Origin: a virus | Taxonomy: Duplodnaviria > Heunggongvirae > Uroviricota > Caudoviricetes | Reading direction: 5' to 3' (one strand) | DNA length: 64,000 bases | Virus record (IMG/VR): IMGVR_UViG_2541047680_000004 | Shown: positions 4,732 to 60,298 of the stretch, piece after piece | Position numbering within the stretch: the stretch's first letter is position 1 | Layout of the letters: every line of letters begins with the position of its first letter | Made by a program: the position numbers and the translations under genes | The notes under the pieces: model-generated | What the model saw: the letters and a program-made list of their open reading frames with translations, nothing else | Told to the model about the DNA's origin: nothing | Database searches by the model: none

Positions 4732-5874
4732 TTACAGGTCTGCAAACTGGCTTAGAGAAGCCTTATCCACGGTAGAATCGATCTGACCTACCAGATATGT
4801 GCTTTGCTCTGCCTCTTGTGGTGCAATTTGCAGTGTGTCGGTTAACAACCACTTGTTCATCCAGACCAGCGGATCTGTGGTAACTTCTGGAAATAAAGCC
4901 TTCAGGCCAAGACGATTCATAGCCAGATTGGTGCGGTATTTTACATAGGTCTTCAGAATATCCGCGTTTAAACCAATCATCGAACCGTCTTTGAAGAGAT
5001 AGTCTGCCCAGTTCATTTCTTGTTCGGCGACTGATTTCATGGTGTCGTAAATGACGTTTTCTTCATCAGCAGCAATCTCTTTCCACAATAAACCTTCGCG
5101 ACCGGTACGCATGAAGCGGATCATGCGTTCAGTTCCTTCGCAATGCAGAGCTTCATCACGGGCAATAAAGCGCATAATTTTGGTGTTGCCCTCAAGCAAC
5201 TTCCGTTCGCCAAAGGCAAACGTACATGCAAAACTTACATAGAAACGGATCGCCTCAAGCGCATTAATGGACACCAACGTGCGGAAAAGCTGACGGTGCA
5301 AAGGGTATGGCTCCCAGCCATATTCATTTACGTACAGACGTTCAAACTCTTTCTCACCTAACGACTGGCGCTCGCAGGTCATCCCATAAAGCCTGTCATA
5401 TTCAGCAGAGATACTGATCGCTCGGTTGATGATTTCTTCATCCGTAACAATACCGTTAAAAACAATGCTCGGATCGTCCACCATGCCACGAATAATGTGG
5501 GTGTAGCTGCGGCTATGGATAGTCTCAGAGAAAGACCATGTTTCAACCCACGTTTCCAGTTCAGGAATAGAGATAAGCGGCAGCAGCGTTGCATTTGGGC
5601 TACGTCCCTGAACTGAATCGAGTAACGTTTGATAACGGAGATTGCTCAGAAAAATGTGACGTTCGTGGTCCCGCAGCTTCGTGTTGAAGTCGATACGATC
5701 GCTCGAAATATCAACTTCTTCCGGCCGCCAGAAGAAAGACAATTGACGTTCAATCAACTTTTCAAAATCACGGTATTTTTGCTGATCGTAACGTGCCACG
5801 TTGACAGATTGTCCGAGGAACATAGGCTCTTTGGTTGCATCATTAGCACCCAAACGGAACGTTGAATATGACAT
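4732..5874 (-). CDS. nrdB: ribonucleotide reductase small (beta) subunit
   Basis: [14 protein letters not shown] and EALHCEG iron-ligand/tyrosyl-radical region motifs; 380 aa; adjacent to nrdA. Confidence 0.9.
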
Positions 5875-51177: not shown

Positions 51178-54100
51178 TTATTCTTTAGGTGAATTTAACT
51201 TCGTTTCAAGCTCCTCAACCCTTTTGGTCAATTGCTGAATATGATGAATGAGTGGTACAACCAAACGCTCATACATCACTCCTTCAGCGACCATACCATT
51301 TGAGGAAATATCTCCTGGAGAATCATTATTTGTTGGTTCACGCCAATGGACATATTGCGGGGCAATCTCACCAACCTCTTCAGCAATAAGGCCGTAATAC
51401 CCCCAATCCTTTCGGTCACCTCGACAAATTGAACGATACCAAACAGGTCTTAATGACAAAAGTTCATCAGCATATCGATCTTGTAATGTTTCAATATCCT
51501 TTTTATAGCGCCTTGAAGATGTTGAACGCCAAACTGTATTGATACCTGGGTTTGGATCAATGTACATATTGGCACCGCTAGTAGTTGTGCCAATATCCCA
51601 TATAGCAAACCCTCCACTACCGCCTGATTTGACAACCAGTGTTTCAGCAATAATATCCAGGTTGCCACTATAGCCTGTCAGTGATGATCTGCTTGCATAG
51701 GAACTTAGAAGGTTTGTTACCTCTGTTTTCGTATAAGCATTAAGGTTAGCCGCAGTCAAAGTAATATCGGCAGAGCCATCAAACGCCACACCAGCAATTT
51801 TCCTTGCTGTCTGCAATTTTGTGGCTGTTGCGGCATTACCAGTAGTATTCTGATTACCGGTTGTATTCACACCAGGGATTGAATCCTTAGCGGTATATAC
51901 CTGCGCCCACGCTGACCATGCCGCATCAGTGGTATCTCTTCTGGAGCGAATGAAAACCGGCGCATGTGCACCGCTCGTACCACTCCAGCCAATAAGCAAC
52001 TCGCCCTCACCAGCAGCACTCGCACCTTTCATGTGCAATACGTTGCCATACGTGGTCGGGTAGCTATTGTTGTACGCCTCGTACATTTGAATGCCAGCAG
52101 TACCTTGAGTAGAACCGCTTAAAGCCGTAACTCGACCACGAGAAACCAATGTATTAATATTGATATCACCTGAACCATCAAACTTAACACCATTGATGTT
52201 TCTCGCTGTTTGCAACTTCGTAGCTGTTGAAGCATTGCCATTCAAGCTACCATTTACGCCACCAGTAACATTTAGTCCATTACCAATAGACACAACACCG
52301 CTGCTATTATTAATTATAATCGGTCGCAAACTGTTCCATGAACCTAACGTATCTCCTGATGCTGTTAGCATGAAATATGTGCTGCCGCCGTCATTACGGA
52401 TAAAGAACCCGTAGTTACCGTAAGCAATGCGGAAACCATTTGCATATTTTGAAACGATCTCACCAGAAGACGTCAACCCTCCAGATAATGTGCCACCTGA
52501 AAGCGGTAATGCTCCTACATCAGAAGCTGTTGGTTTGTTTCTAGTGTTATAAGAACGACGCCAGCCTGGCGCATAATCACTCCCATTGTACACATAAATA
52601 AATTCCGCATTATTAACACCACCATGACCTGATGTTGTTGCCGTTGTAACACGAATAGTGTAGTGGCTTGTTGCCTTATTACTAAACACCTCAATCACGG
52701 AACCAGATAGATCGATCCTACCGCAACCAGTGTCGTCTATATAATTATTGTTGGCGTAAGTCCATGAGCACCGTGCGATCCAATGTTTGTTTGTAAATGC
52801 CCCCTGATTGTTTAGCCAAGTTATAAATTGAGCAGTCGTAAATGCCGTTCCGTTACCACTATTTAACCATCCAGCGGCAGCGGTTGGTGCGTTTATATCA
52901 GCCGGCTGAGGCATAAATCCAGTCGTGTAAACCTGCTCCCAACCACTTTCAAAACCATAGCCATCTCTTGAGGAACGGTAGAACAGACCACCATTTTTAT
53001 AGTGAGCTTTAATTTGAAGCGTACGGCAACTACCTACACCGGTATAAAAGTTGGCAAGAATATAACTGGCGCCTGTTCTAGTTACATTGTAAGCACCAGA
53101 TTCAGCATTCCACGGCACGCCACCATCAGCATCCGCATATGACCCTGTTGCCCTTCTTGCGAAAGCGGCAACATGCGCAGCGGTTAAAGTGATATCAGTA
53201 GAACCATCAAATGGAACACCGGATATTTTTCTTGCAGTCTGAAGTTTTGTAGCAGTTGCAGCATTACCAGTGGTGTTCTGATTACCCGTAGTGTTTACAC
53301 CTGGAAGGTTGATATTTGCAGAACCGTCGAAACCAACTCCACCGATAGATCTTGCCGTCTGCAATTTCGTTGCTGTACTTGCATTACCATTTAATGTTCC
53401 GGTGATCCCACCAGTAACAGACAACGGACCTGAAACTGTTCCTCCGGTTGTTGGCAGTGCTCCAATATCTAACGGCGTCGGTTTCTGATGTGTGCTATAC
53501 ATCGTATAAACAACACCATCGGTAACGCTGGAAGGCTTACTCGCTGAATATGTTGGCGATGTATAAACAGAAACTGACGCATTTGCAGTACAATCCCAAT
53601 GGATATTTACACTCGTCGCATAATTGCCAATTTCAACGTAAATATCATATGTATCGCCGGATGTGTTGATCCAGGCGAAATTCGTTAATCCGACAGCTGT
53701 ACGCTTCCACAAAGCACCTGTAATCCCTTTGGGGTTTCCATTGCCTGCTCGTAGAACCAGTTCTGAAATGCCTGCCTGATGTGGGGAGCCGACGTTGTAA
53801 CCAGCGCCACCAATCAATGCGATGTAAACGATGGAACTCGCTTGTGGCATTGTAACAGTAGCCAGTTTGAACCACCCGGCCCCGCCAGAGAAAGACATCG
53901 TTATTGAATTTAAAGTACCAATATCTTTCGGCGTTAATGTGATATCCGCAGTCAGTGCTTTCCCGTTAATTTTTCGGTTAGATGGCACCCTGCTGTTCGC
54001 ATTGTCATTGACTACTTTAACTGCTTTTGGCGTTGCGGCCAGCGATTCACTGGTGCTGTCGACAGCACTGCTAAGTTTCACAACACCTTTAGTTGTAAGG

Positions 54101-55476
54101 CTTGCGTCTTCCATCGCAACTGCACCGGCAATCTCTTCAGCACGATCAGCAGCAGCTTCCGCACGGGTCGCAGCGGATTCAGCAGCAGTTTTGCTCTGAG
54201 ATGCTGCCGTCGCACTGCCTGCCGCCTCTGTTGCTTTCGTGGATGCCGTCGTGGCGCTGCCCTTCGCTGCTGACGCCTGTCTGGTCGCCTCATCTTTTGA
54301 AGCAGACGCAGATGATGCCGATGACGCTGCCGAACTGGCGGACGATGCGGCTGCCGTTTTTGAGGATTCTGCACGGGTTTCCGACGCTTTCGCGTTCGTT
54401 TCGGATGTCTTCGCTGCGGAAGCAGACCTCGCTGCTGCGCTGGCCTGTTCAGTGGCTTCGCCAGCCTTCGTTGTGGCTGTTGAAGCAGATGATGCGGCAC
54501 TTTCTGCCGATTTTCCGGCGGCGGTGGCACTGGCTGAGGCCTGCCCGGCACTTGTTGACGCGGCACTGGCAGACGACGCAGCCGCTGTTTTTGAGCCTGC
54601 CGCAGCCGAGGCGCTCTGTCCCGCTGCCGTTTCAGAAGACCTGGCGTTCGTCTCGGACGTTTTTGCCGCCTTCGCGGAATTTCCTGCCGCCGTTGCCGAG
54701 GAAGCGGCATTACTGGCGCTCGAGGCTGCGCTCGTTTCTGATGATTTCGCTGCCTCTTTTGAGGCCGCCGCATCCCGGGCTGAGGTGGCAGCTTCTGACG
54801 CCTTCGTGGTCGCGGTGGATGCAGAAGTGGCTGCAGATTTTTGTGACGCTGCAGCATTCGTTTCAGACGTTTTCGCGGCACCGGCACTGGTGGCCGCCGC
54901 GCTTTTTGAGGACTCTGCAGCGGATGCACTTTGAGACGCTTGAGAGGCTTTTTCTCCAGCGGTATTGGCGCTTTCTGCTGCTGCGGCAGCACTGGCCGCC
55001 GCCTCACGAGCTTTGTCGCCAGCAGCATCAATCGCGTCAGTGTTATTTTTATACCACTCAACGTTTTCGTTGTGCTCGTTGACGATCTGCATTAGCGGCT
55101 TAACGGTCACTTCTGTACCGTCTTCACGCTCGATTGTCACCTCATCCAGAGCAGTCAACCAACTGCGCATGGACTTGGAATCAGCCGACATACGCGACAT
55201 TAGTGCTGTAAAGCGCGCGCTAAACTGTGTTAAGTCGCCTTCATAGGTCGTAATGATTCGGCACGGAACTTCAGACTGAGTTTCGCCGGTATAGGGTTCT
55301 GAGAGAACAATGTTCGTATCACTGGTTACGCGCTTGATCTCATACAGCTTATTGTCGGGGCCAATGACGATCATCCCCGGCAACACACCATTAGCTGTTA
55401 CGTTCCAGGCTGTCCCTGCCCCAACCAGAGTATTGCTGCCCTGTGTAAATGTGATAGTACCTTCCCTGTACCACAT
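51178..55476 (-). CDS. long tail fibre with C-terminal intramolecular-chaperone (peptidase S74-like) domain
   Basis: 1432 aa; Ala/Ser/Thr-rich stalk; triplicated GNASTATKLQTAR ... FDGS modules; C-terminal SRRYKKDIETL ... chaperone/autoproteolysis-like domain as in T5 pb1-type fibres. Confidence 0.75.
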   Translation of the reverse strand: MWYREGTITFTQGSNTLVGAGTAWNVTANGVLPGMIVIGPDNKLYEIKRVTSDTNIVLSEPYTGETQSEVPCRIITTYEGDLTQFSARFTALMSRMSADSKSMRSWLTALDEVTIEREDGTEVTVKPLMQIVNEHNENVEWYKNNTDAIDAAGDKAREAAASAAAAAESANTAGEKASQASQSASAAESSKSAAATSAGAAKTSETNAAASQKSAATSASTATTKASEAATSARDAAASKEAAKSSETSAASSASNAASSATAAGNSAKAAKTSETNARSSETAAGQSASAAAGSKTAAASSASAASTSAGQASASATAAGKSAESAASSASTATTKAGEATEQASAAARSASAAKTSETNAKASETRAESSKTAAASSASSAASSASSASASKDEATRQASAAKGSATTASTKATEAAGSATAASQSKTAAESAATRAEAAADRAEEIAGAVAMEDASLTTKGVVKLSSAVDSTSESLAATPKAVKVVNDNANSRVPSNRKINGKALTADITLTPKDIGTLNSITMSFSGGAGWFKLATVTMPQASSIVYIALIGGAGYNVGSPHQAGISELVLRAGNGNPKGITGALWKRTAVGLTNFAWINTSGDTYDIYVEIGNYATSVNIHWDCTANASVSVYTSPTYSASKPSSVTDGVVYTMYSTHQKPTPLDIGALPTTGGTVSGPLSVTGGITGTLNGNASTATKLQTARSIGGVGFDGSANINLPGVNTTGNQNTTGNAATATKLQTARKISGVPFDGSTDITLTAAHVAAFARRATGSYADADGGVPWNAESGAYNVTRTGASYILANFYTGVGSCRTLQIKAHYKNGGLFYRSSRDGYGFESGWEQVYTTGFMPQPADINAPTAAAGWLNSGNGTAFTTAQFITWLNNQGAFTNKHWIARCSWTYANNNYIDDTGCGRIDLSGSVIEVFSNKATSHYTIRVTTATTSGHGGVNNAEFIYVYNGSDYAPGWRRSYNTRNKPTASDVGALPLSGGTLSGGLTSSGEIVSKYANGFRIAYGNYGFFIRNDGGSTYFMLTASGDTLGSWNSLRPIIINNSSGVVSIGNGLNVTGGVNGSLNGNASTATKLQTARNINGVKFDGSGDININTLVSRGRVTALSGSTQGTAGIQMYEAYNNSYPTTYGNVLHMKGASAAGEGELLIGWSGTSGAHAPVFIRSRRDTTDAAWSAWAQVYTAKDSIPGVNTTGNQNTTGNAATATKLQTARKIAGVAFDGSADITLTAANLNAYTKTEVTNLLSSYASRSSLTGYSGNLDIIAETLVVKSGGSGGFAIWDIGTTTSGANMYIDPNPGINTVWRSTSSRRYKKDIETLQDRYADELLSLRPVWYRSICRGDRKDWGYYGLIAEEVGEIAPQYVHWREPTNNDSPGDISSNGMVAEGVMYERLVVPLIHHIQQLTKRVEELETKLNSPKE

Positions 55477-55567: not shown

Positions 55568-58500
55568 TTACAGAAGGCCAATTCTTACTCGTAGGACGTT
55601 GTTATCGTCATAAACGTCAATCCGCTGACCATTTATGACCAGTCGCCCATTACCCCCGCTATTACCGTTGATCTCAAGCGTTCCATTTTTGCCGAACCGC
55701 CATCCAGATCTACCGCTAACAAAATTGGTAGATTGCAGATCGCCTACTTTTGCATTGGTGATTGTGCCATCCTTGATATACGCACCATTCATATAGGCGA
55801 TACTGTTTTCGATAACAAATGGCGTGGTGATCTTCCCGTTAACAGAGTTGACCAAACCAAACCTGTCAGCCTGCACCAAAAACTGAGAAAGGCCAGTGGT
55901 GTCGATACCAAGCGCAATACCAGCAACATACTTCTGCCCTCCGCTCGTTGAAGTTTCCATTTTCAACGTCCACGCGGTTGACACTTTTTTGTTGGTATCA
56001 GCAATAGCTGTTGCCTGCTGTTGAATTGTCGCGGTATTTCCATCCACCTCTGCTTTCAGAGTATCGATTCGCCCACTCAGAGCATTATCTGCCTGCGTTC
56101 TCGCTGTCGTTTCAGTTGTTACCGCCGCGGAAATGTTGGCTGCCGTTTGAGACTCTAAGTTTGTGATTTGAGTCGCCAATGCAGCATCTTGCTCTGTACG
56201 CGTTTTCGTTTCGGTTGCTACAGCCGCTTTAATATCCTCTTTGTATTGAGAGGTCAGCTTGGTGATCTGAGACGACAACGCCGAGTCAGCATCAGTTCGA
56301 GCCTGCGTTTCAACTGCAACGGCCGCACTAATATCTTTCGCTGTCTGTGCTTTTAAACTTGAAACCTCTTTTGTTAAAGCGGTATCACCATCAGCACGAG
56401 CCGTTGTTTCTCTGGCAAGAGATGCCTCGAGATCATTAGCTTTTGCTGTAAGAGACGAAATCTGAGTGGACAATGCACTATCGGCATCAGTCCTTGCCTT
56501 TGTCTCTACAGCAACCGCTGCGGCAATATCAGTTCCGGTTTGTGCTCGCAGGCTGTTAATTTCTCGTGAGAGCGCCTGGTCAGCACTTGCTCTGGCCTCC
56601 TGCTCCTGAGTGATGGCAGCGGATATATCACCGTCAACCTTTGACTGAAGCTGGTTTATTAGTTTGGCTAACGCAGAGTCCCCGCTTGCTCGGGCCTCCT
56701 GCTCACTACGTATTGCAGCAGAAATATCATCATCAACCTTTGCCTGAAGTTGGGTGATCTGGCTTGCCAGAGCCGAATCTTCCGTTGCTCGGGCTTCTTG
56801 CTCTTCCTTAATAGCTGCGACGATATCGTTGCTTACTTTCGACTCAAGCTGAGTGATCTGTGTCGTCAGAGCTTCATCGGCAGATGTGCGAGCCTCCTGC
56901 TCTGTACTAATCGCCGCGCTGATATCTCCTTCAAACTTAGATTGCAGCTGAGTGACACGCTTTGCCAACGCTTCATCGCCATCGGCACGAGCGGTGGACT
57001 CTTCCAGAATACTGGCCTTAATGTCTTCGCCAATTTCTACGCGAATTTCCTCAACCTTCGTGGCCATTGCAGACATATCATCAGCAAAGGTTTTCTGTGT
57101 TGTTGCGATCTTCGCGTTATTGACCATCTGCTTGTGCTGGTCTTCATCTTGACGAAGAGCCAGGTCAATATTTGTTTTGGCTAACGCCTCAATGTTCGTA
57201 GTCAGTTCTGCACTGGCACGATCGACCTCTGCAACCGTCTTTTTCATTTCTTCAACGGCAGCGGAGCTTTCCTCTACCGTTGACTGCAACACTTCCAGTT
57301 GTTTAGCGTTTGCAGCATCGCCTTCAACACGAGCCTCGCTTTCCTTAGCAATAAGAGCCGCCGCTTCATCTCTTGCAGCCTTTATTGCCTCGACTGTATT
57401 AGCGAGAGCTTTATCGTGTTCAGATACGGTGTTTTCGATTTCAACAATTGCAGCATCAGTGGCATCAATTTTTTCAAACGCTTCATTGACCTTGTCGATC
57501 GTTGCCGAAACCTCACCTTTAAGCTCGGTTTGTGCGTTCTCCAAAGCATCGCTACGCTCGTTGAATTTTATTTCAAAACCCGCGAGGTTATCGCTGAACT
57601 GCTTATCTAATTCAGCTATATCTTCCTTAACGTCGTTTACCGACCCCTCCAAAGATTCGACGCTCTGGTTGATATGCTCATTTAACTCGTCAACTGCTTC
57701 TTGAGAGGCTTTGCTGTTGATGTCCTCAAGCAGAGCCTGACCAAGCTCGGAAGATGTAATTTTGCCAGCCAGGAACGACAGTACATCGCGAGTTGTCGCC
57801 TCTGTACCCAAGTTTGAGTTCGGAGGGCTTAACATACCTCGCTTGTTCGATGCTCGAACCCAGTAATACCACGTTTCGCTATCCCCAAGACCAGCATGTG
57901 TAAAGGTGGTGCTTGCAGACTCTGCGATCAGTTTCGCCGTATCCAGATTGTTGGTCTGGGATGCGTAAACATTAATGTGATCAAGGTCTACCGAATCTGG
58001 ATTAACCCAATTCAGTATCACATTACGATAGTCTCCAACGGCCGTTAATGACGTTGGGGCATCCGGCGGTGTCATTGTGCCCAACACCTGATAAACGGTA
58101 CTGATAATCTCTGTTTTTTTACCGTTGAATGAAACCGCATACAGTTGGAAGTCGTAGCGTCCATTCTCCGCGACATTAACGATTTCGTATTGCTCTTCGG
58201 TTACACGCGCCGATTGCCAGTTCGATACATTGTTTTCATCAGAACGTCGCCAACTGATCCAATACTCTGGAGATTTTCCTTCCCATGTTGCAGTCAGTTT
58301 TACTGACAGGTTGCCCGGGCTTGAGAGATAAGTCCCTTCAGTGATTTGCAGATTAGATGGCTTGGAGTAAGTTGGGTCCAATACCGTCGTATTCTGCGGG
58401 ATCAGCGTTGCACCATTGTCGATTGCCTCATATTTAGACGGATTGTTCTCAACAGCGGTGATGTCAAAGCTACCCGGCGTTTCCCCCTGCGCGATGTTAA

Positions 58501-60298
58501 CGATGCGAACGCGCATAGGTTCGAGATCTGGTTCTGTAATTGTCCAGACACCGTTCAAAACAGGCGTTTCCGCTGACGACAGGGCTTTTGAAAACGTAAC
58601 CTTTGTTATGTTTTCGCCAGTTTCAAGAACATCGCGTTCAACGATTTTGCCTTCCTGATTCAATATCCGAATAAAGCTGCCGCTTTTAGCTAACGACACA
58701 GGCGCATCGAGAGTGATGCTGTTTTTGGTAAACTCCACAATTCGACCGGAGTTACGTTTACCTGCACGATATTTGTTCTGAATCAGAACGGTTTCACCGG
58801 GCATCAGAAATGAGGCGTCTAAGCCGGCAGTAAATGTAATTACATCCGACTCCATTCTGGCGGTATACAAAAGCCACAAACCAACTCGGTGAGCCTGGCC
58901 TCGGCTTGTACATCCAAATGCTACGACTTCTGTTTTACGCTCACCATAACGGCGCATTGCGTCCTGATCTTCAACGTACTCGATGTTTTGCTTATAACCG
59001 TCCTCCTTGTTGTTGTAGGTTACGAGCGCAACGGATGGGCGATCTTTACGCGCAGAACCTTTATAGGTAAACAGTCCATCTTTGACGTTGGAGTTGGTAA
59101 ACATCATTACCGGATCTGATGGGCTATCCTGCATGATGTTAACCATGCCACCAGCCCAAAACACCATGCCGCGGAATGCACCGGCAATATCCTGAATTAA
59201 TCGGTATGCGTCTTGTCGACTGGTGATCTGCGTATTGATTGCAAAGCGTTTCTCTTTACCCCCAAAGCCATCATCGACCTCTTCGTCACAATATCGACCA
59301 ATCTGGTAGAGCTGGCCGAGGTCAATCATGGATTCCGACACAAATTGCCCAAGACCATACCGAGTATTGGTAAGCAAATCGTAGAGAATCCACGCAGGGT
59401 TTGAAGAAGACAACAGCTTAAAAGTACCGTCCCATACGCCGACATAAGTATTGGTGTATTCGTTGTAGTTTGACGGTACTCGGATTTTGATACCGCGCAC
59501 CAAATACGAACGGGAAGGCATTGTGCTACCAAACTGCTCTGAATTGACCTTCAAGCCAACAAGAGCAGAGTTAGGGTAGTTCATTGGCGTGTCGACAATC
59601 TCACCGATGGAATCAACCCATGTGTCGTTGTAGAGGTACTGGCTACTATTATCATCTGTAAGACGAATCACCCTAACCTTGTATGCACGACCAGGCTTAG
59701 GCAGTTTCAGCTCATAGCTACGGTAATACACGCCGGTTTTCTTTGCCGTTAGCGTGATATCAACGCTTTTCTCACCTTCTGCCACTACATCAGAAAATGT
59801 TGCGTCTGCGTTGGCGATCTGGAATTTGTACTTCACCGTAGTGCCATTTGTATCGCCAGAGCTTTTATCAACGCTACGTAAAGAGGGGAATTTCATGATG
59901 ACACGAACGCGATCAGCTTCATCGTTATCGATTGAAACCGTAACGTCGTGTGTTTTTTTAAGCTGAATATTTACGGACTTAGGCGTTTCGACAAAATCAA
60001 AACCAGCCATTGGCGTCTGATCTTGTGAGCCGTCACGAAAATCCCATGTAATACCGCTGAAGTTGGAAGAGCCATCTTCATTCAAGATCGGTAAATCGTC
60101 GATGAAGATCGACTTTGCGCCATTTACCAGGCCACCGATAACCCCCTCGCCAAGAAGGTCGAGGATGGCTGCCATAGCACGAGAATTGACAGTATCATCA
60201 GCTTCAACCGGGGTACGGCTGGAGCTTTTACTTTTCTTGCCACCAGCACCGGCAATAAGAAGCGGTAATTTTTTCTTCTTGAACTGTTCCATGTCCAA
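55568..60298 (-). CDS. lambda J-like central tail fibre / tail tip protein with C-terminal coiled-coil repeat array
   Basis: N-terminal and central regions align in motif order with lambda gpJ (SRSYLVRGIKIRVPSNYN, WDGTF, FGCTSRGQAHRVGLWLL, fibronectin-like segment); about 12 tandem 29-aa repeats in the C-terminal third. Confidence 0.8.
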   Translation of the reverse strand: MDMEQFKKKKLPLLIAGAGGKKSKSSSRTPVEADDTVNSRAMAAILDLLGEGVIGGLVNGAKSIFIDDLPILNEDGSSNFSGITWDFRDGSQDQTPMAGFDFVETPKSVNIQLKKTHDVTVSIDNDEADRVRVIMKFPSLRSVDKSSGDTNGTTVKYKFQIANADATFSDVVAEGEKSVDITLTAKKTGVYYRSYELKLPKPGRAYKVRVIRLTDDNSSQYLYNDTWVDSIGEIVDTPMNYPNSALVGLKVNSEQFGSTMPSRSYLVRGIKIRVPSNYNEYTNTYVGVWDGTFKLLSSSNPAWILYDLLTNTRYGLGQFVSESMIDLGQLYQIGRYCDEEVDDGFGGKEKRFAINTQITSRQDAYRLIQDIAGAFRGMVFWAGGMVNIMQDSPSDPVMMFTNSNVKDGLFTYKGSARKDRPSVALVTYNNKEDGYKQNIEYVEDQDAMRRYGERKTEVVAFGCTSRGQAHRVGLWLLYTARMESDVITFTAGLDASFLMPGETVLIQNKYRAGKRNSGRIVEFTKNSITLDAPVSLAKSGSFIRILNQEGKIVERDVLETGENITKVTFSKALSSAETPVLNGVWTITEPDLEPMRVRIVNIAQGETPGSFDITAVENNPSKYEAIDNGATLIPQNTTVLDPTYSKPSNLQITEGTYLSSPGNLSVKLTATWEGKSPEYWISWRRSDENNVSNWQSARVTEEQYEIVNVAENGRYDFQLYAVSFNGKKTEIISTVYQVLGTMTPPDAPTSLTAVGDYRNVILNWVNPDSVDLDHINVYASQTNNLDTAKLIAESASTTFTHAGLGDSETWYYWVRASNKRGMLSPPNSNLGTEATTRDVLSFLAGKITSSELGQALLEDINSKASQEAVDELNEHINQSVESLEGSVNDVKEDIAELDKQFSDNLAGFEIKFNERSDALENAQTELKGEVSATIDKVNEAFEKIDATDAAIVEIENTVSEHDKALANTVEAIKAARDEAAALIAKESEARVEGDAANAKQLEVLQSTVEESSAAVEEMKKTVAEVDRASAELTTNIEALAKTNIDLALRQDEDQHKQMVNNAKIATTQKTFADDMSAMATKVEEIRVEIGEDIKASILEESTARADGDEALAKRVTQLQSKFEGDISAAISTEQEARTSADEALTTQITQLESKVSNDIVAAIKEEQEARATEDSALASQITQLQAKVDDDISAAIRSEQEARASGDSALAKLINQLQSKVDGDISAAITQEQEARASADQALSREINSLRAQTGTDIAAAVAVETKARTDADSALSTQISSLTAKANDLEASLARETTARADGDTALTKEVSSLKAQTAKDISAAVAVETQARTDADSALSSQITKLTSQYKEDIKAAVATETKTRTEQDAALATQITNLESQTAANISAAVTTETTARTQADNALSGRIDTLKAEVDGNTATIQQQATAIADTNKKVSTAWTLKMETSTSGGQKYVAGIALGIDTTGLSQFLVQADRFGLVNSVNGKITTPFVIENSIAYMNGAYIKDGTITNAKVGDLQSTNFVSGRSGWRFGKNGTLEINGNSGGNGRLVINGQRIDVYDDNNVLRVRIGLL
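56000..57300 (-). repeat. tandem repeat array of roughly 87 bp inside the J-like gene
   Basis: Repeating DNA units encoding ...DISAAI.(E/T)EQEARA(S/T)(A/G)D.AL...I..L..K... ; boundaries approximate. Confidence 0.6.

What the first reader, a model, noticed from the sequence alone, without database searches (positions are those of the whole stretch)
56000..57300. Tandem 29-aa (about 87-bp) repeat array in the J-like tail-tip gene
The C-terminal third of the 1576-aa J-like protein is built from about 12 imperfect tandem repeats (...V(D/S)(G/D)DISAAI.(T/S)EQEARA(S/T)ADSAL...I..L.AK...), visible at DNA level as repeating units. This predicts an extended coiled-coil or beta-helical rod whose length can change by recombination between repeats, a likely source of host-range or adsorption-distance variation between isolates.
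Basis: seen in the sequence. Interest (0 to 1): 0.5.

Follow-up and report, generated by a model that had tools for sequence, protein, structure and literature searches.

The report
Repeat-built shaft of phage tail fibre
The tail-tip protein of this E. coli phage-plasmid has a rod made of ten 33-amino-acid repeats, a known kind of helical tail-fibre shaft that probably works as a spring and differs between relatives by whole repeats.

Summary
It has 10 canonical units of 33 aa (99 bp), one of them 32 aa. It spans aa 1091-1419 of the TipJ-like gene, window 56042-57028 on the minus strand. It is not about 12 units of 29 aa. Autocorrelation gives z = 21.6 at lag 33 and 1.2 at lag 29.

The window is an SSU5-like E. 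coli phage-plasmid (pECOH89, 99.9% identical). The array aligns with the alpha-helical shaft of solved F-type pyocin central fibres and with phage T1 gp33. AlphaFold2 models it as continuous helix.

Every unit carries two inverted copies of the SxSxxMxxLxS motif. That motif was shown in 2026 to let the F7 pyocin shaft switch from a coiled coil to a beta-prism. The pyocin residues whose mutation abolishes killing map onto the unit's small-residue positions.

Copy number does change in whole units. About 4% of 167 close E. coli alleles have 9 units, from two independent junctions. SSU5-like relatives have 10, 9, 6, 5, 3 or 1.

The units are ancient: 52% nucleotide identity, and synonymous sites are saturated. 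This is not a hypervariable locus. The fibre tip is 92-96% conserved, so a host-range role is unsupported.

Verdict: a new member of a known kind, of moderate interest.

The parts
55568..60298 (-). TipJ / lambda-J-like central tail fibre gene. It is 1576 aa from TTG at 60298; RefSeq homologues start at the ATG at 60292, giving 1574 aa.
   Evidence: ORF list. Pfam matches: FNIII-A_GpJ at aa 103-237, Phage-tail_3 at 359-522, fn3 at 746-825, Phage_Tail_Tip at 1424-1558. The gene order TMP-M-L-K-I-J is the one annotated in pECOH89.
56042..57028 (-). Array of 10 canonical 33-aa (99-bp) units, r1-r10, covering aa 1091-1419. Unit r7 is 32 aa. Unit borders on the minus strand: r1 56930-57028, r2 56831-56929, r3 56732-56830, r4 56633-56731, r5 56534-56632, r6 56435-56533, r7 56339-56434, r8 56240-56338, r9 56141-56239, r10 56042-56140.
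   Evidence: Autocorrelation, unit table and column logo, repeat-HMM hits with E-values of 1e-16 to 1e-20 each, helix in AlphaFold2 models, and two inverted fold-switch motifs per unit.
56534..56830 (-). Units r3-r5, the hotspot of natural one-unit length changes and the only part that Tandem Repeats Finder detects at DNA level.
   Evidence: TRF reports 56586-56803. The 9-unit alleles L003 and L004 lack r4; L005 has an r4/r5 hybrid.
57029..57751 (-). Upstream helical region of the shaft, aa ~850-1090. It has heptad-like periodicity and degenerate units, the clearest at aa 981-1008. It is a possible 'spine' or side-fibre docking region.
   Evidence: Hydrophobicity peak at 3.55 residues and a weak HMM hit. 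Motif hits at 949/981/1013 and 964/996, spaced 32 aa apart. A docking role is inference only.
55571..56041 (-). Distal tip domain (Pfam Phage_Tail_Tip, formerly DUF1983), aa 1420-1576. It ends the protein.
   Evidence: Pfam E-value 1.5e-41. It aligns with T1 gp33, the F2 pyocin fibre and lambda gpJ residues 839-971. It is 92-96% identical to PhiR41_1 and SSU5.
51178..55476 (-). Downstream 1432-aa side tail fibre gene. It gives context and is a possible partner of the shaft.
   Evidence: Pfam Gp34_trimer and Peptidase_S74. PDB sequence matches to Mu fibre protein S and T4 gp34. No sequence match to the pyocin side fibre.

Best explanation
The array is the shaft of the phage's central tail fibre. 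Three copies of the TipJ-like protein form the tail tip. [quoted passage not shown]

The last 329 residues of that shaft are ten 33-residue units. Each unit has 9 core positions (3, 7, 10, 14, 17, 21, 25, 28, 32). That is 3.67 residues per core position, which is hendecad-like and implies an almost straight bundle. Each unit also has an invariant buried E10-R14-D18 charge triad.

Each unit also contains two inverted copies of the motif S-x-S-x-x-M-x-x-L-x-S (S small, L Leu/Ile/Val, M hydrophobic or charged), at positions 5-15 reversed and 20-30 forward. The copies are separated by Gly/Asp/Asn-rich linkers. In F7 pyocin this motif is what lets the shaft refold from a coiled coil into a triangular beta-prism on receptor contact, which opens the tip and expels the tape-measure protein.

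I therefore propose that each unit is one quantum of a metastable spring. As helix, one unit is about 4.9 nm; as a beta-hairpin it is about 1 nm (two strands). Ten units would give about 49 nm of reach that collapses to about 10 nm.

Copy number changes rarely, by in-register loss or gain of whole units through very short homologies. Selection would remove out-of-register products.

Shown:
- the repeat anatomy;
- homology to solved shafts;
- the helical prediction;
- motif content, and its mapping onto residues tested experimentally in the pyocin;
- natural whole-unit polymorphism.

Inferred:
- the trimeric state;
- the core register;
- the fold switch in this phage;
- one unit equals one hairpin;
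- the lengths.
For: 1. Family and context. Pfam finds TipJ domains and the gene sits in a lambda-like tail-tip gene order.

2. Homology of the array plus tip to solved central fibres: T1 gp33 (9l9p_S, E 8e-29), the F2 pyocin fibre (25vf_A, E 3e-25, aligned across the last units and the tip), and DEV gp56 (9ze4_N). A profile of the unit alone finds the same three chains and not lambda gpJ.

3. Published structures. The pyocin region is a three-stranded coiled coil (PMC13455828, PMC12874032).

4. AlphaFold2. The whole array is helix, at pLDDT 70-77 from a single sequence and up to 91 with 49 sequences.

5. Motif content. All 10 units have the reversed motif at position 5 and the forward motif at position 20, i.e. 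20 of 20. There are 27 hits against 5.8 +/- 2.2 in shuffles, with a maximum of 14 in 500 shuffles.

6. Mapping onto pyocin experiments, via the F2 sequence. The pyocin units start at 966, 998 and 1030. Glu1039 and Arg1043 are unit positions 10 and 14. The four corner residues whose Gln substitution kills activity (A987, A995, V1010, A1017; PMC12874032) are positions 22, 30, 13 and 20, which are all S positions. The harmless controls A998 and A1011 are positions 33 and 14.

7. Conservation. In 1230 units from 136 proteins that are under 50% identical to each other: A5 96%, [IVL]7 100%, E10 99%, R14 98%, D18 90%, and small residues at positions 13/15/20/22/30 in 94-100%. Averaged residue frequencies at the S and L positions come out close to the percentages the paper reports (my arithmetic from the columns).

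8. Dual periodicity. The array has hydrophobic periodicity at both 3.65 residues (helix) and 2.07 residues (strand). The upstream helix shows only 3.55.

9. Linker lengths. Inter-unit spacings across the family are 32 (569 cases), 33 (90), 36 (84) and 39 (35). Relative to 32 these are +1, +4 and +7, the insertions that a coiled coil tolerates.

10. Whole-unit variation.
Against: - No beta-prism conformer was obtained. Only monomer AlphaFold2 was available, and it gave helix both with and without an alignment. Foldseek was uninformative.
- The fold switch has been shown experimentally only for a pyocin, in a preprint. Its authors note that lambda and T5 do not use it.
- Small exposed residues and buried salt bridges could equally serve a static coiled coil, or the docking of side-fibre stems in the grooves of the shaft, as seen in F2 pyocin.
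- The residues just after the array do not match the motif, and the 'seed' strands there are predicted only at low confidence.
- An 84-nm helical fibre has not been checked against electron micrographs of SSU5-like virions.
- The downstream fibre shows no sequence similarity to the pyocin side fibre.
Confidence: 0.55

Rival explanations
1. Static spacer. The array is a permanent trimeric coiled-coil stalk that only sets the distance between the tail tip and the distal tip domain, for example to span O-antigen or capsule. It does not refold during infection. The conserved small residues and the E-R-D triad serve coiled-coil stability or the docking of other fibre proteins.
For: - AlphaFold2 gives helix only, under both alignment depths.
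- Linker lengths are quantised as +1, +4 and +7 relative to 32, as a coiled coil requires.
- In F2 pyocin the side-fibre stems pack into grooves of the shaft (PMC13455828).
- Lambda and T5 infect without such a switch (PMC12874032, discussion).
Against: - The conservation is very strong: 94-100% small residues at six exposed positions per unit, across proteins under 50% identical.
- Those positions coincide exactly with the beta-prism corner residues whose mutation kills F7 pyocin without affecting assembly (PMC12874032).
- The array has a strong 2.07-residue hydrophobic periodicity that the upstream plain helix lacks.
Confidence: 0.33
2. Native beta rod. In the virion the repeats already form a beta-helix or beta-prism fibre, like many phage spikes, and not a coiled coil.
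For: - The array has a strong 2.07-residue hydrophobic alternation.
- The pyocin paper reports that AlphaFold3 predicts a beta-prism for about 30% of homologous phage fibres (PMC12874032).
Against: - Helix is predicted here at pLDDT up to 91.
- The array contains no Pro and only 7 Gly in 329 residues.
- The pre-ejection pyocin structures are coiled coils (PMC12874032, PMC13455828).
- Linker insertions follow heptad arithmetic.
Confidence: 0.05
3. Hypervariable contingency repeat. The array exists mainly to generate frequent length variants by recombination or slippage, as a fast source of host-range diversity between isolates.
For: - 9-unit alleles exist among near-identical plasmids, from two independent junctions.
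- Unit number differs between SSU5-like lineages.
Against: - Units share only 52% nucleotide identity, with no exact repeat of 14 nt or more.
- Synonymous sites between units are saturated.
- About 96% of 167 close E. coli alleles keep 10 units.
- The junctions used 3-17 nt of homology.
- The tip domain is the conserved part of the protein.
Confidence: 0.05
4. No real feature. The apparent repeats come from Ala/Ser/Thr/Glu-rich composition or from an assembly artefact.
For: The region is compositionally biased, at 20% Ala.
Against: - z = 21.6 against composition-preserving shuffles.
- HMM E-values of 1e-16 to 1e-20 for each unit.
- The same array is present in 160+ complete plasmid assemblies and in phage Cyrano.
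Confidence: 0.01

Closest known systems
Central fibre protein of F-type pyocins (F7, PMC12874032; F2, PDB 25vf/25vj/26ci, PMC13455828)
   Same: - TipJ-like hub, followed by a trimeric alpha-helical shaft, followed by a Phage_Tail_Tip-type distal domain.
- Direct sequence alignment across the last units and the tip (E 3e-25).
- The same 32/33-residue unit with the E-R(-D) charge pair and the SxSxxMxxLxS motif in both orientations.
- The experimentally critical corner residues fall on the same unit positions.
   Different: - The pyocin shaft is 163 residues, which I count from the F2 sequence as about 4-5 partly degenerate units spaced 32 aa apart.
- Here there are 10 near-perfect 33-aa units, plus about 240 more helical residues upstream.
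- This is a DNA-carrying temperate phage-plasmid, not a bacteriocin.
- The downstream fibre is Mu-S / T4-gp34-like with an S74 chaperone domain, and shows no sequence match to the PyoF13 side fibre.
- No PyoF11/F12-like small receptor-binding proteins were identified.
- Fold switching is not demonstrated here.
Phage T1 central fibre protein gp33 (PDB 9l9p_S; PMC11945409)
   Same: - It is the best solved-structure sequence match (E 8e-29).
- It contains units of the same repeat family immediately before a homologous tip domain.
   Different: - T1 has only about 3-4 units.
- Its C-terminal residues 821-1172 were not resolved. They were only predicted by AF3, as a ~37-nm alpha/beta fibre, so no experimental structure of the repeats comes from T1.
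Lambda gpJ (PDB 8iyk and others; PMC11101478)
   Same: - The hub, FNIII-A, Phage-tail_3 and fn3 domains, and the Phage_Tail_Tip domain (lambda residues 839-971 align with aa 1419-1548 here).
- The same gene neighbourhood.
   Different: - Lambda has no repeat unit at all: the unit profile finds nothing in it.
- Lambda continues after the tip domain into a LamB-binding C-terminal domain, whereas this protein ends with the tip domain.
- The NCBIfam lambda_TipJ score is 530 bits, against a cut-off of 1950.
Pseudomonas phage DEV gp56 short fibre (PDB 9ze4_N; PMC12892993)
   Same: - A J-like 'central straight fibre' with three units of the same repeat, spaced 32 aa apart.
- A homologous C-terminal end.
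   Different: - It belongs to a podovirus (N4-like).
- It has only 3 weak units.
- It recruits separate receptor-binding proteins, gp55 and gp54.
J proteins of SSU5-like phage-plasmids (SSU5, PhiR41_1, Cyrano/pLF82, pHCM2- and pMT1-type plasmids)
   Same: - They are orthologues. The hub is 91-95% identical and the tip 92-96% identical.
- They share the same unit and the same conserved 114-residue offset of an upstream degenerate unit.
   Different: Canonical unit number differs: 10 here and in Cyrano; 9 in PhiR41_1; 6 in the Salmonella and Yersinia types; 5 in SSU5 and in one E. coli type; 3 and 1 in others.

Membership tests
TipJ / lambda-J-like central tail fibre (tail-tip) protein | N-terminal hub architecture: the FNIII-A_GpJ, Phage-tail_3 and fibronectin III domains. 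| tested here: met
   Pfam PF24801 (E 1e-29), PF13550 (E 7.5e-34) and PF00041 (25.4 bits, just above the 25-bit cut-off). PHROG 31 'central tail fiber J' covers aa 2-1394.
TipJ / lambda-J-like central tail fibre (tail-tip) protein | Position in a lambda-like tail-tip operon, after the tape measure and the M-, L-, K- and I-like genes. | tested here: met
   The annotated neighbourhood of the 99.9% identical pECOH89 reads: tape measure, tail protein, minor tail protein L, C40 peptidase, tail assembly protein, then this gene.
TipJ / lambda-J-like central tail fibre (tail-tip) protein | Equivalog of lambda gpJ itself (NCBIfam lambda_TipJ). | tested here: not met
   530 bits against a cut-off of 1950, and the match covers aa 22-956 only. 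It is a family member but not a lambda J equivalog.
Phage_Tail_Tip (PF09327, formerly DUF1983) distal domain | Full-length match to the Pfam profile. | tested here: met
   E 1.5e-41, profile positions 1-138 of 139, at aa 1424-1558.
F-pyocin-type fold-switching central-fibre shaft (He et al. 2026, PMC12874032) | Sequence homology of the shaft and tip to the F-pyocin central fibre C-terminus. | tested here: met
   phmmer E 3e-25 to 25vf_A, aligning query 446-719 with chain residues 926-1193. The unit profile hits 25vf_A at 1033-1062.
F-pyocin-type fold-switching central-fibre shaft (He et al. 2026, PMC12874032) | Long region with high helical or coiled-coil propensity, directly upstream of the distal beta domain. 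| tested here: met
   AlphaFold2 gives helix over aa 1082-1408 in both runs. Hydrophobic period is 3.65 residues. The trimeric state itself is not testable with these tools.
F-pyocin-type fold-switching central-fibre shaft (He et al. 2026, PMC12874032) | SxSxxMxxLxS motif recurring in alternating orientation, with Arg at +/-4 from an acidic M position. | tested here: met
   Reversed copy at unit position 5 and forward copy at position 20 in 10 of 10 units. E10-R14 and R14-D18 are invariant. Enrichment is 27 hits against 5.8 +/- 2.2. The pyocin mutant positions map onto the S sites.
F-pyocin-type fold-switching central-fibre shaft (He et al. 2026, PMC12874032) | A non-switching region that begins with about three beta-prism 'seed' strands right after the coiled coil. 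| tested here: inconclusive
   The alignment-based AlphaFold2 model shows two short strands at model residues 335-344 (aa 1415-1424), but at pLDDT ~40. There is no motif hit after aa 1406 until 1475.
F-pyocin-type fold-switching central-fibre shaft (He et al. 2026, PMC12874032) | An alternative beta-prism conformer, either predicted (trimer, deep alignment) or observed. | not testable with these tools
   Only monomer AlphaFold2 was available, and both runs gave helix. This needs AF3, AF2-multimer or CF-random on the trimer, or cryo-EM.
F-pyocin-type fold-switching central-fibre shaft (He et al. 2026, PMC12874032) | Side fibres dock on an acidic kink of the shaft through an OB-type N-terminal domain. 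| tested here: inconclusive
   The downstream 1432-aa fibre has no sequence match to any chain of the pyocin entries. Its N-terminus (aa 5-78) gives only a chance-level hit (E 0.13) to a distal tail protein. No structural comparison was done.
Hypervariable (contingency-type) tandem repeat locus | Near-identical DNA units that allow frequent slippage or recombination. | tested here: not met
   Mean unit nucleotide identity is 52% (maximum 64%), with no exact repeat of 14 nt or more. Synonymous codon identity is 0.34 against 0.35 expected.
Hypervariable (contingency-type) tandem repeat locus | Copy number differs commonly among closely related isolates. | tested here: not met
   3 of 60 sampled records are 99 bp shorter. 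Six records out of 167 match one of the two deletion junctions exactly. All other records checked keep 10 units.

The most novel reading that the evidence does not exclude
The 32/33-residue unit is the quantal building block of a fold-switching 'spring' used by many non-contractile tails. One unit would be about nine helical turns in the loaded state and one beta-hairpin in the fired state. Its two inverted motif copies would explain how identical tandem units can build an antiparallel sheet. Copy number would then tune reach, stroke length and stored energy. It runs from 0 to 25 in the best 150 family representatives, is 10 here, and natural 9/10 alleles exist. The SSU5-like phage-plasmids would then offer a ready-made allelic series (10, 9, 6, 5, 3, 1 units on a nearly constant hub and tip) for testing how a non-contractile tail powers envelope penetration.
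Probability: 0.4. Interest if true: 0.65.

Novelty: new member of a known kind. Interest (0 to 1): 0.4.

Why it matters
How long non-contractile tails find the energy to open their tip and breach the envelope is an open question. The pyocin fold switch reported in 2026 is the first concrete answer, and so far it rests on one bacteriocin.

This locus shows the same sequence signature in an unusually regular, ten-fold repeated form, in a common family of E. coli, Salmonella and Yersinia phage-plasmids. About 3% of complete E. coli genomes carry this allele family, always on plasmids.

Two things follow:
- The fold-switch region has a modular repeat grammar. The word 'repeat' does not occur in the main text of the pyocin preprint.
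- Nature provides an allelic series of unit numbers on an otherwise conserved protein, which makes questions about reach and stroke directly testable.

It also matters practically. The shaft, not the tip, is the variable part of J in this group, so differences in J length between these plasmids should not be read as changes of receptor. Because the repeat is diverged at DNA level, the array has the same length in 160+ complete plasmid assemblies.

Tried and rejected
1. A 29-aa / 87-bp period is rejected by protein and DNA autocorrelation.

2. Structure prediction as a test of fold switching. I ran a single-sequence job and a 49-sequence AlphaFold2 monomer job. Both gave helix. The helix breaks fall at different places (aa 1301-1304 versus 1215-1227), which I read as monomer fold-back artefacts and not as real kinks. 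No beta conformer appeared, so the test is inconclusive and not negative.

3. A Foldseek search of the model against the PDB gave only the phage SU10 tail-tip fibre (E 2e-5) plus noise. A monomer model of an intertwined trimer is a poor query.

4. A profile search to deepen the alignment returned only 35 proteins, most of them short fragments.

5. I looked for similarity between the downstream fibre and the pyocin side fibre and found none.

6. I looked for a super-repeat of six units, because r1 resembles r7. Lag-6 identities are no higher than lag-1 identities, so I rejected it.

7. My first attempts to place the published 11-residue motif as three strands per unit failed. The consistent solution is two inverted copies per unit, confirmed by mapping the pyocin mutants.

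8. A literature search for earlier descriptions of this repeat found nothing specific. The supplementary tables of the pyocin preprint are not held, so I could not check whether SSU5-like phages were among its 24 analysed fibres.

9. The unit counts include one degenerate unit 114 aa upstream. The counts were corrected.
Full report
**1. What is in the sequence**

The finding lies in a 4731-nt ORF on the minus strand, window 55568-60298. It is 1576 aa from a TTG. RefSeq annotation of the 99.9% identical plasmid pECOH89 starts two codons later, at the ATG, giving 1574 aa.

Pfam places four domains:
- FNIII-A_GpJ at aa 103-237
- Phage-tail_3 at aa 359-522
- fn3 at aa 746-825
- Phage_Tail_Tip (formerly DUF1983) at aa 1424-1558

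Nothing in Pfam covers aa 830-1420.

**2. Checking the observation**

BLOSUM62 autocorrelation of aa 1091-1419 was tested against 200 composition-preserving shuffles. It gives z = 21.6 at lag 33, with 49% identical residues. It gives 15.4 at lag 66, 10.8 at lag 99 and 1.2 at lag 29.

At DNA level, identity is 0.53 at lag 99. At lag 87 it is 0.29, against a background of 0.28.

So the period is 33 aa / 99 bp, not 29 aa / 87 bp. There are ten canonical units, r1-r10. Unit r7 has 32 residues. They span window 56042-57028. Each unit scores E 1e-16 to 1e-20 against a profile of the ten.

Seven columns are invariant (A5, E10, R14, D18, A20, L21, L28) and three more are 90% conserved (D2, I3, A13).

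Upstream there is one clear degenerate unit, at aa 981-1008. Motif traces spaced 32 aa apart lie at about aa 945-1040, with another at about aa 1058-1090.

Tandem Repeats Finder sees only 2.2 copies of a 99-bp unit, at 56586-56803, which is r3-r5.

At DNA level the units are old:
- Mean nucleotide identity between units is 52% (maximum 64%).
- No exact direct repeat of 14 nt or more exists.
- Where two units share an amino acid, they share the codon in 34% of cases. Codon usage alone predicts 35%.

The DNA periodicity is therefore a by-product of protein conservation.

**3. Where the window comes from**

The gene is 95% identical over its full length to Escherichia phages CMS-2020a and Cyrano. 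Its last 2243 nt are 99.9% identical to pECOH89 and many other ~110-kb non-mobilizable E. coli plasmids.

In complete E. coli genomes the allele family is present in 167-180 of 5426 genomes. It is always on plasmids and never on chromosomes.

Salmonella phage SSU5 and phage PhiR41_1 are more distant relatives. This is therefore an SSU5-like phage-plasmid. The neighbourhood is a lambda-like tail-tip operon, with the genes in this order:
1. tape measure
2. M-like gene
3. L
4. K (C40 peptidase)
5. I
6. this gene
7. a long side fibre

**4. What the array is**

A sequence search of the C-terminal 747 aa against all PDB chains finds:
- phage T1 central fibre gp33 (9l9p_S, E 8e-29)
- the F2 pyocin tail fibre (25vf_A, E 3e-25)
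- the 'central straight fiber' gp56 of Pseudomonas phage DEV (9ze4_N)
- a J-like gp24 (23gd_D)
- lambda gpJ, through the tip domain only (residues 839-971)

A profile of the 33-aa unit alone finds 9l9p_S, 25vf_A and 9ze4_N, and no lambda chain.

In T1 this part was too flexible to resolve (PMC11945409). In the two F-type pyocin studies it is resolved as a three-stranded alpha-helical coiled coil, the 'alpha-helical shaft'. The shaft projects from the tail tip and carries the side fibres (PMC13455828; PMC12874032).

AlphaFold2 models of aa 1081-1576 make the whole array helical. pLDDT is 70-77 from a single sequence and up to 91 with a 49-sequence alignment. The array has no proline and only 7 glycines in 329 residues.

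The conserved hydrophobic and charged positions (3, 7, 10, 14, 17, 21, 25, 28, 32) give nine core positions per 33 residues, or 3.67 residues per position. This matches the 3.65-residue peak of the hydrophobicity spectrum. The register assignment is my inference.

**5. The link to the pyocin fold switch**

He et al. [quoted passage not shown] This opens the tip and expels the tape-measure protein.

According to that paper:
- Each prism strand carries the pattern SxSxxMxxLxS, in the orientation of the strand.
- S positions are small residues, packed in the prism corners and exposed in the coiled coil.
[quoted passage not shown] - Acidic M residues pair with an Arg four residues away.
- Gln at corner residues A987, A995, V1010 and A1017 abolishes killing without affecting assembly.
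- Gln at the controls A998 and A1011 is harmless.

In the present array every unit contains the reversed pattern at positions 5-15 (A-x-[IVL]-x-x-E-x-x-A-R-[AT]). Every unit also contains the forward pattern at positions 20-30 (A-L-[AST]-x-x-[IV]-x-x-L-x-[SA]). That is 20 of 20. The array has 27 motif hits in all, against 5.8 +/- 2.2 in shuffles.

print the F2 pyocin sequence, which carries the residues named for F7. On it the pyocin units start at 966, 998 and 1030. The mapping is:

| F7 residue | Role in the paper | Unit position here |
|---|---|---|
| Glu1039 | acidic M position | 10 |
| Arg1043 | pairs with Glu1039 | 14 |
| A987 | corner, Gln abolishes killing | 22 (S) |
| A995 | corner, Gln abolishes killing | 30 (S) |
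| V1010 | corner, Gln abolishes killing | 13 (S) |
| A1017 | corner, Gln abolishes killing | 20 (S) |
| A998 | control, harmless | 33 (not S) |
| A1011 | control, harmless | 14 (not S) |

The two motif copies are separated by Gly/Asp/Asn/Ser-rich stretches (positions 16-19, and 31 to 4 of the next unit). I infer that one unit corresponds to one beta-hairpin of the prism.

The hydrophobicity spectrum of the array has a 2.07-residue peak as strong as the helical one. The plain helical region upstream has only the 3.55-residue peak.

The preprint does not use the words repeat, heptad or hendecad. The tandem-unit grammar therefore seems not to have been described there.

**6. How widespread the unit is**

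An exhaustive HMMER search with aa 1058-1576 finds 3263 cluster representatives (50% identity level) at E <= 1e-3. Of these, 1471 score at E <= 1e-10.

In the best 150, unit numbers run from 0 to 25 per protein. The spacing between units is 32 aa (569 cases), 33 (90), 36 (84) or 39 (35). Relative to 32 these are +1, +4 and +7, which are the insertions a coiled coil tolerates.

A logo of 1230 units from 136 of these proteins shows:
- A5 96%, [IVL]7 100%, E10 99%, R14 98%, D18 90%, A20 91%
- [IVL]25 94%, [LVI]28 98%
- small residues at positions 13, 15, 22 and 30 in 94-100%

Ten units of 33 aa is thus an ordinary member of a very large family. It is unusually regular compared with the solved examples.

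**7. Does the length change?**

Among 60 records sampled evenly from 167 E. coli plasmids that are at least 96% identical, three are exactly 99 bp shorter.

Alignment shows two different in-register events:
- L003 and L004 lack r4 entirely. The crossover lies inside the 10-nt CAAAGGTTGA shared by the ends of r3 and r4.
- L005 has a hybrid of the first half of r4 and the second half of r5, joined at a 3-nt GAC.

Searches with the two junctions find three exact records each among the 167. The three type-B plasmids look clonal. About 4% of close alleles therefore have nine units, and all other records checked have ten.

PhiR41_1 also has nine units, with an r4/r5-type hybrid. SSU5 has five.

Counting canonical units only (one search corrects, which included one degenerate unit 114 aa upstream):

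| Lineage | Canonical units |
|---|---|
| this window, Cyrano | 10 |
| PhiR41_1, P0011 | 9 |
| Salmonella and Yersinia pMT1-type | 6 |
| SSU5 and one E. coli type | 5 |
| P0034 | 3 |
| E. coli 1229-aa type | 1 |

It happens rarely and through very short homologies, not through DNA-level repeat identity.

**8. Host range**

Regional identity of this protein to PhiR41_1 and to SSU5:

| Region | vs PhiR41_1 | vs SSU5 |
|---|---|---|
| hub and fibronectin part | 0.95 | 0.91 |
| tip domain | 0.92 | 0.96 |
| upstream helix | 0.61 | 0.63 |
| array | 0.62 | 0.33 |

The distal tip is nearly the same in an E. coli element and a Salmonella phage. The shaft is what diverges. This argues against reading the array as a receptor-specificity determinant.

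An effect on reach, for example across O-antigen, remains possible but untested.

The downstream 1432-aa fibre resembles the Mu S and T4 gp34 fibres. It carries a C-terminal S74 chaperone domain. It is a more likely specificity determinant.

**9. Mechanism proposed, and its status**

The anatomy, the homology, the helix prediction, the motif mapping and the whole-unit polymorphism are shown.

The following steps are inferred:
- The shaft is a trimer.
- Ten units give about 49 nm of coiled coil (329 x 0.148 nm), plus about 36 nm from aa 850-1090.
- On receptor engagement the array refolds into a prism of about 20 strands per chain, roughly 10 nm high.
- This pulls the tip to the surface and releases energy, as in F7 pyocin.

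I give the shaft identity about 0.85 and the fold switch in this phage about 0.45-0.5. The combined statement gets 0.55. The main rival is a static coiled-coil spacer, at 0.33.

**10. Comparison with what is known, and novelty**

The protein is a TipJ-family central fibre protein. It is not a lambda J equivalog. Its shaft is of the F-pyocin / T1 type.

The kind is known since 2025-2026, and NCBI already annotates the gene as 'phage tail tip fiber protein'. Three points are new here:
- The fold-switch region has a regular tandem-unit grammar, with two inverted motifs per 32/33-aa unit.
- This is a very clean ten-unit example, in a common phage-plasmid family.
- Natural whole-unit polymorphism is documented, with its junctions.

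I rate it a new member of a known kind, with interest 0.4.

Noticed in passing
window 51178-55476 (-): The downstream 1432-aa fibre has a long Ala/Ser/Thr-rich low-complexity stretch at aa ~150-450, with small tandem repeats at 54135-54184 and nearby. It also has Mu-S-like and T4 gp34-like domains, a duplicated 'GVNTTGNQNTTGNAATATKLQTARK' segment, and a C-terminal S74 intramolecular chaperone domain. In the gene table held for pECOH89 (PLSDB's, stated to be incomplete) only the last ~979 aa are listed, leaving about 1.45 kb after J with no listed gene.
   Followed up: partly
NZ_CP020118.1 (H34/H75/H100) and NZ_CP029421.1 (H44/H150), homologous to window ~55900-57200: In some E. coli plasmids the J gene is interrupted within or next to the repeat region. 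One has an IS1 insertion: the match is split in two pieces with about 776 extra bp, and an IS1 transposase is annotated there. A second has an insertion of about 1.25 kb. These elements probably cannot make infectious particles.
   Followed up: no
window 57029-58000 (-), aa ~770-1090; L001 and L002: In every SSU5-like J protein examined, one degenerate unit lies exactly 114 residues before the first canonical unit, whatever the number of canonical units. The conserved offset suggests a fixed structural element between them, possibly the side-fibre docking site or 'spine'.
   Followed up: no
window 55568-60298 (-) compared with L001 and L002: Within J, the hub and the distal tip are 91-96% identical across E. 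coli and Salmonella members of the group. The shaft is only 33-63% identical. This is the reverse of the usual expectation that the distal end of a tail fibre is its most variable part.
   Followed up: partly
proteins P0079-P0119: Dozens of database proteins 97-99% identical to the N-terminal part of this J protein end at aa ~900-1090, just before or at the start of the array. Many are labelled partial. This may reflect contig breaks in short-read assemblies, or real truncations. It was not resolved.
   Followed up: no
window 56750-57184 (+), 57177-57704 (+), 57299-57610 (+): Long open frames of 103-175 aa with TTG starts lie antisense to the shaft-coding region. They are most likely a by-product of the biased codon content of the Ala/Glu-rich repeats and not genes.
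   Followed up: no
L003, L004, L005 (9-unit alleles), 5035-5600 of each locus: In the three 9-unit plasmids the gap between J and the next fibre gene is about 480-560 bp, and the fibre gene differs; in one it is annotated as a pseudogene. In the window the gap is 91 bp. The shaft allele and the side-fibre allele may be exchanged together.
   Followed up: no
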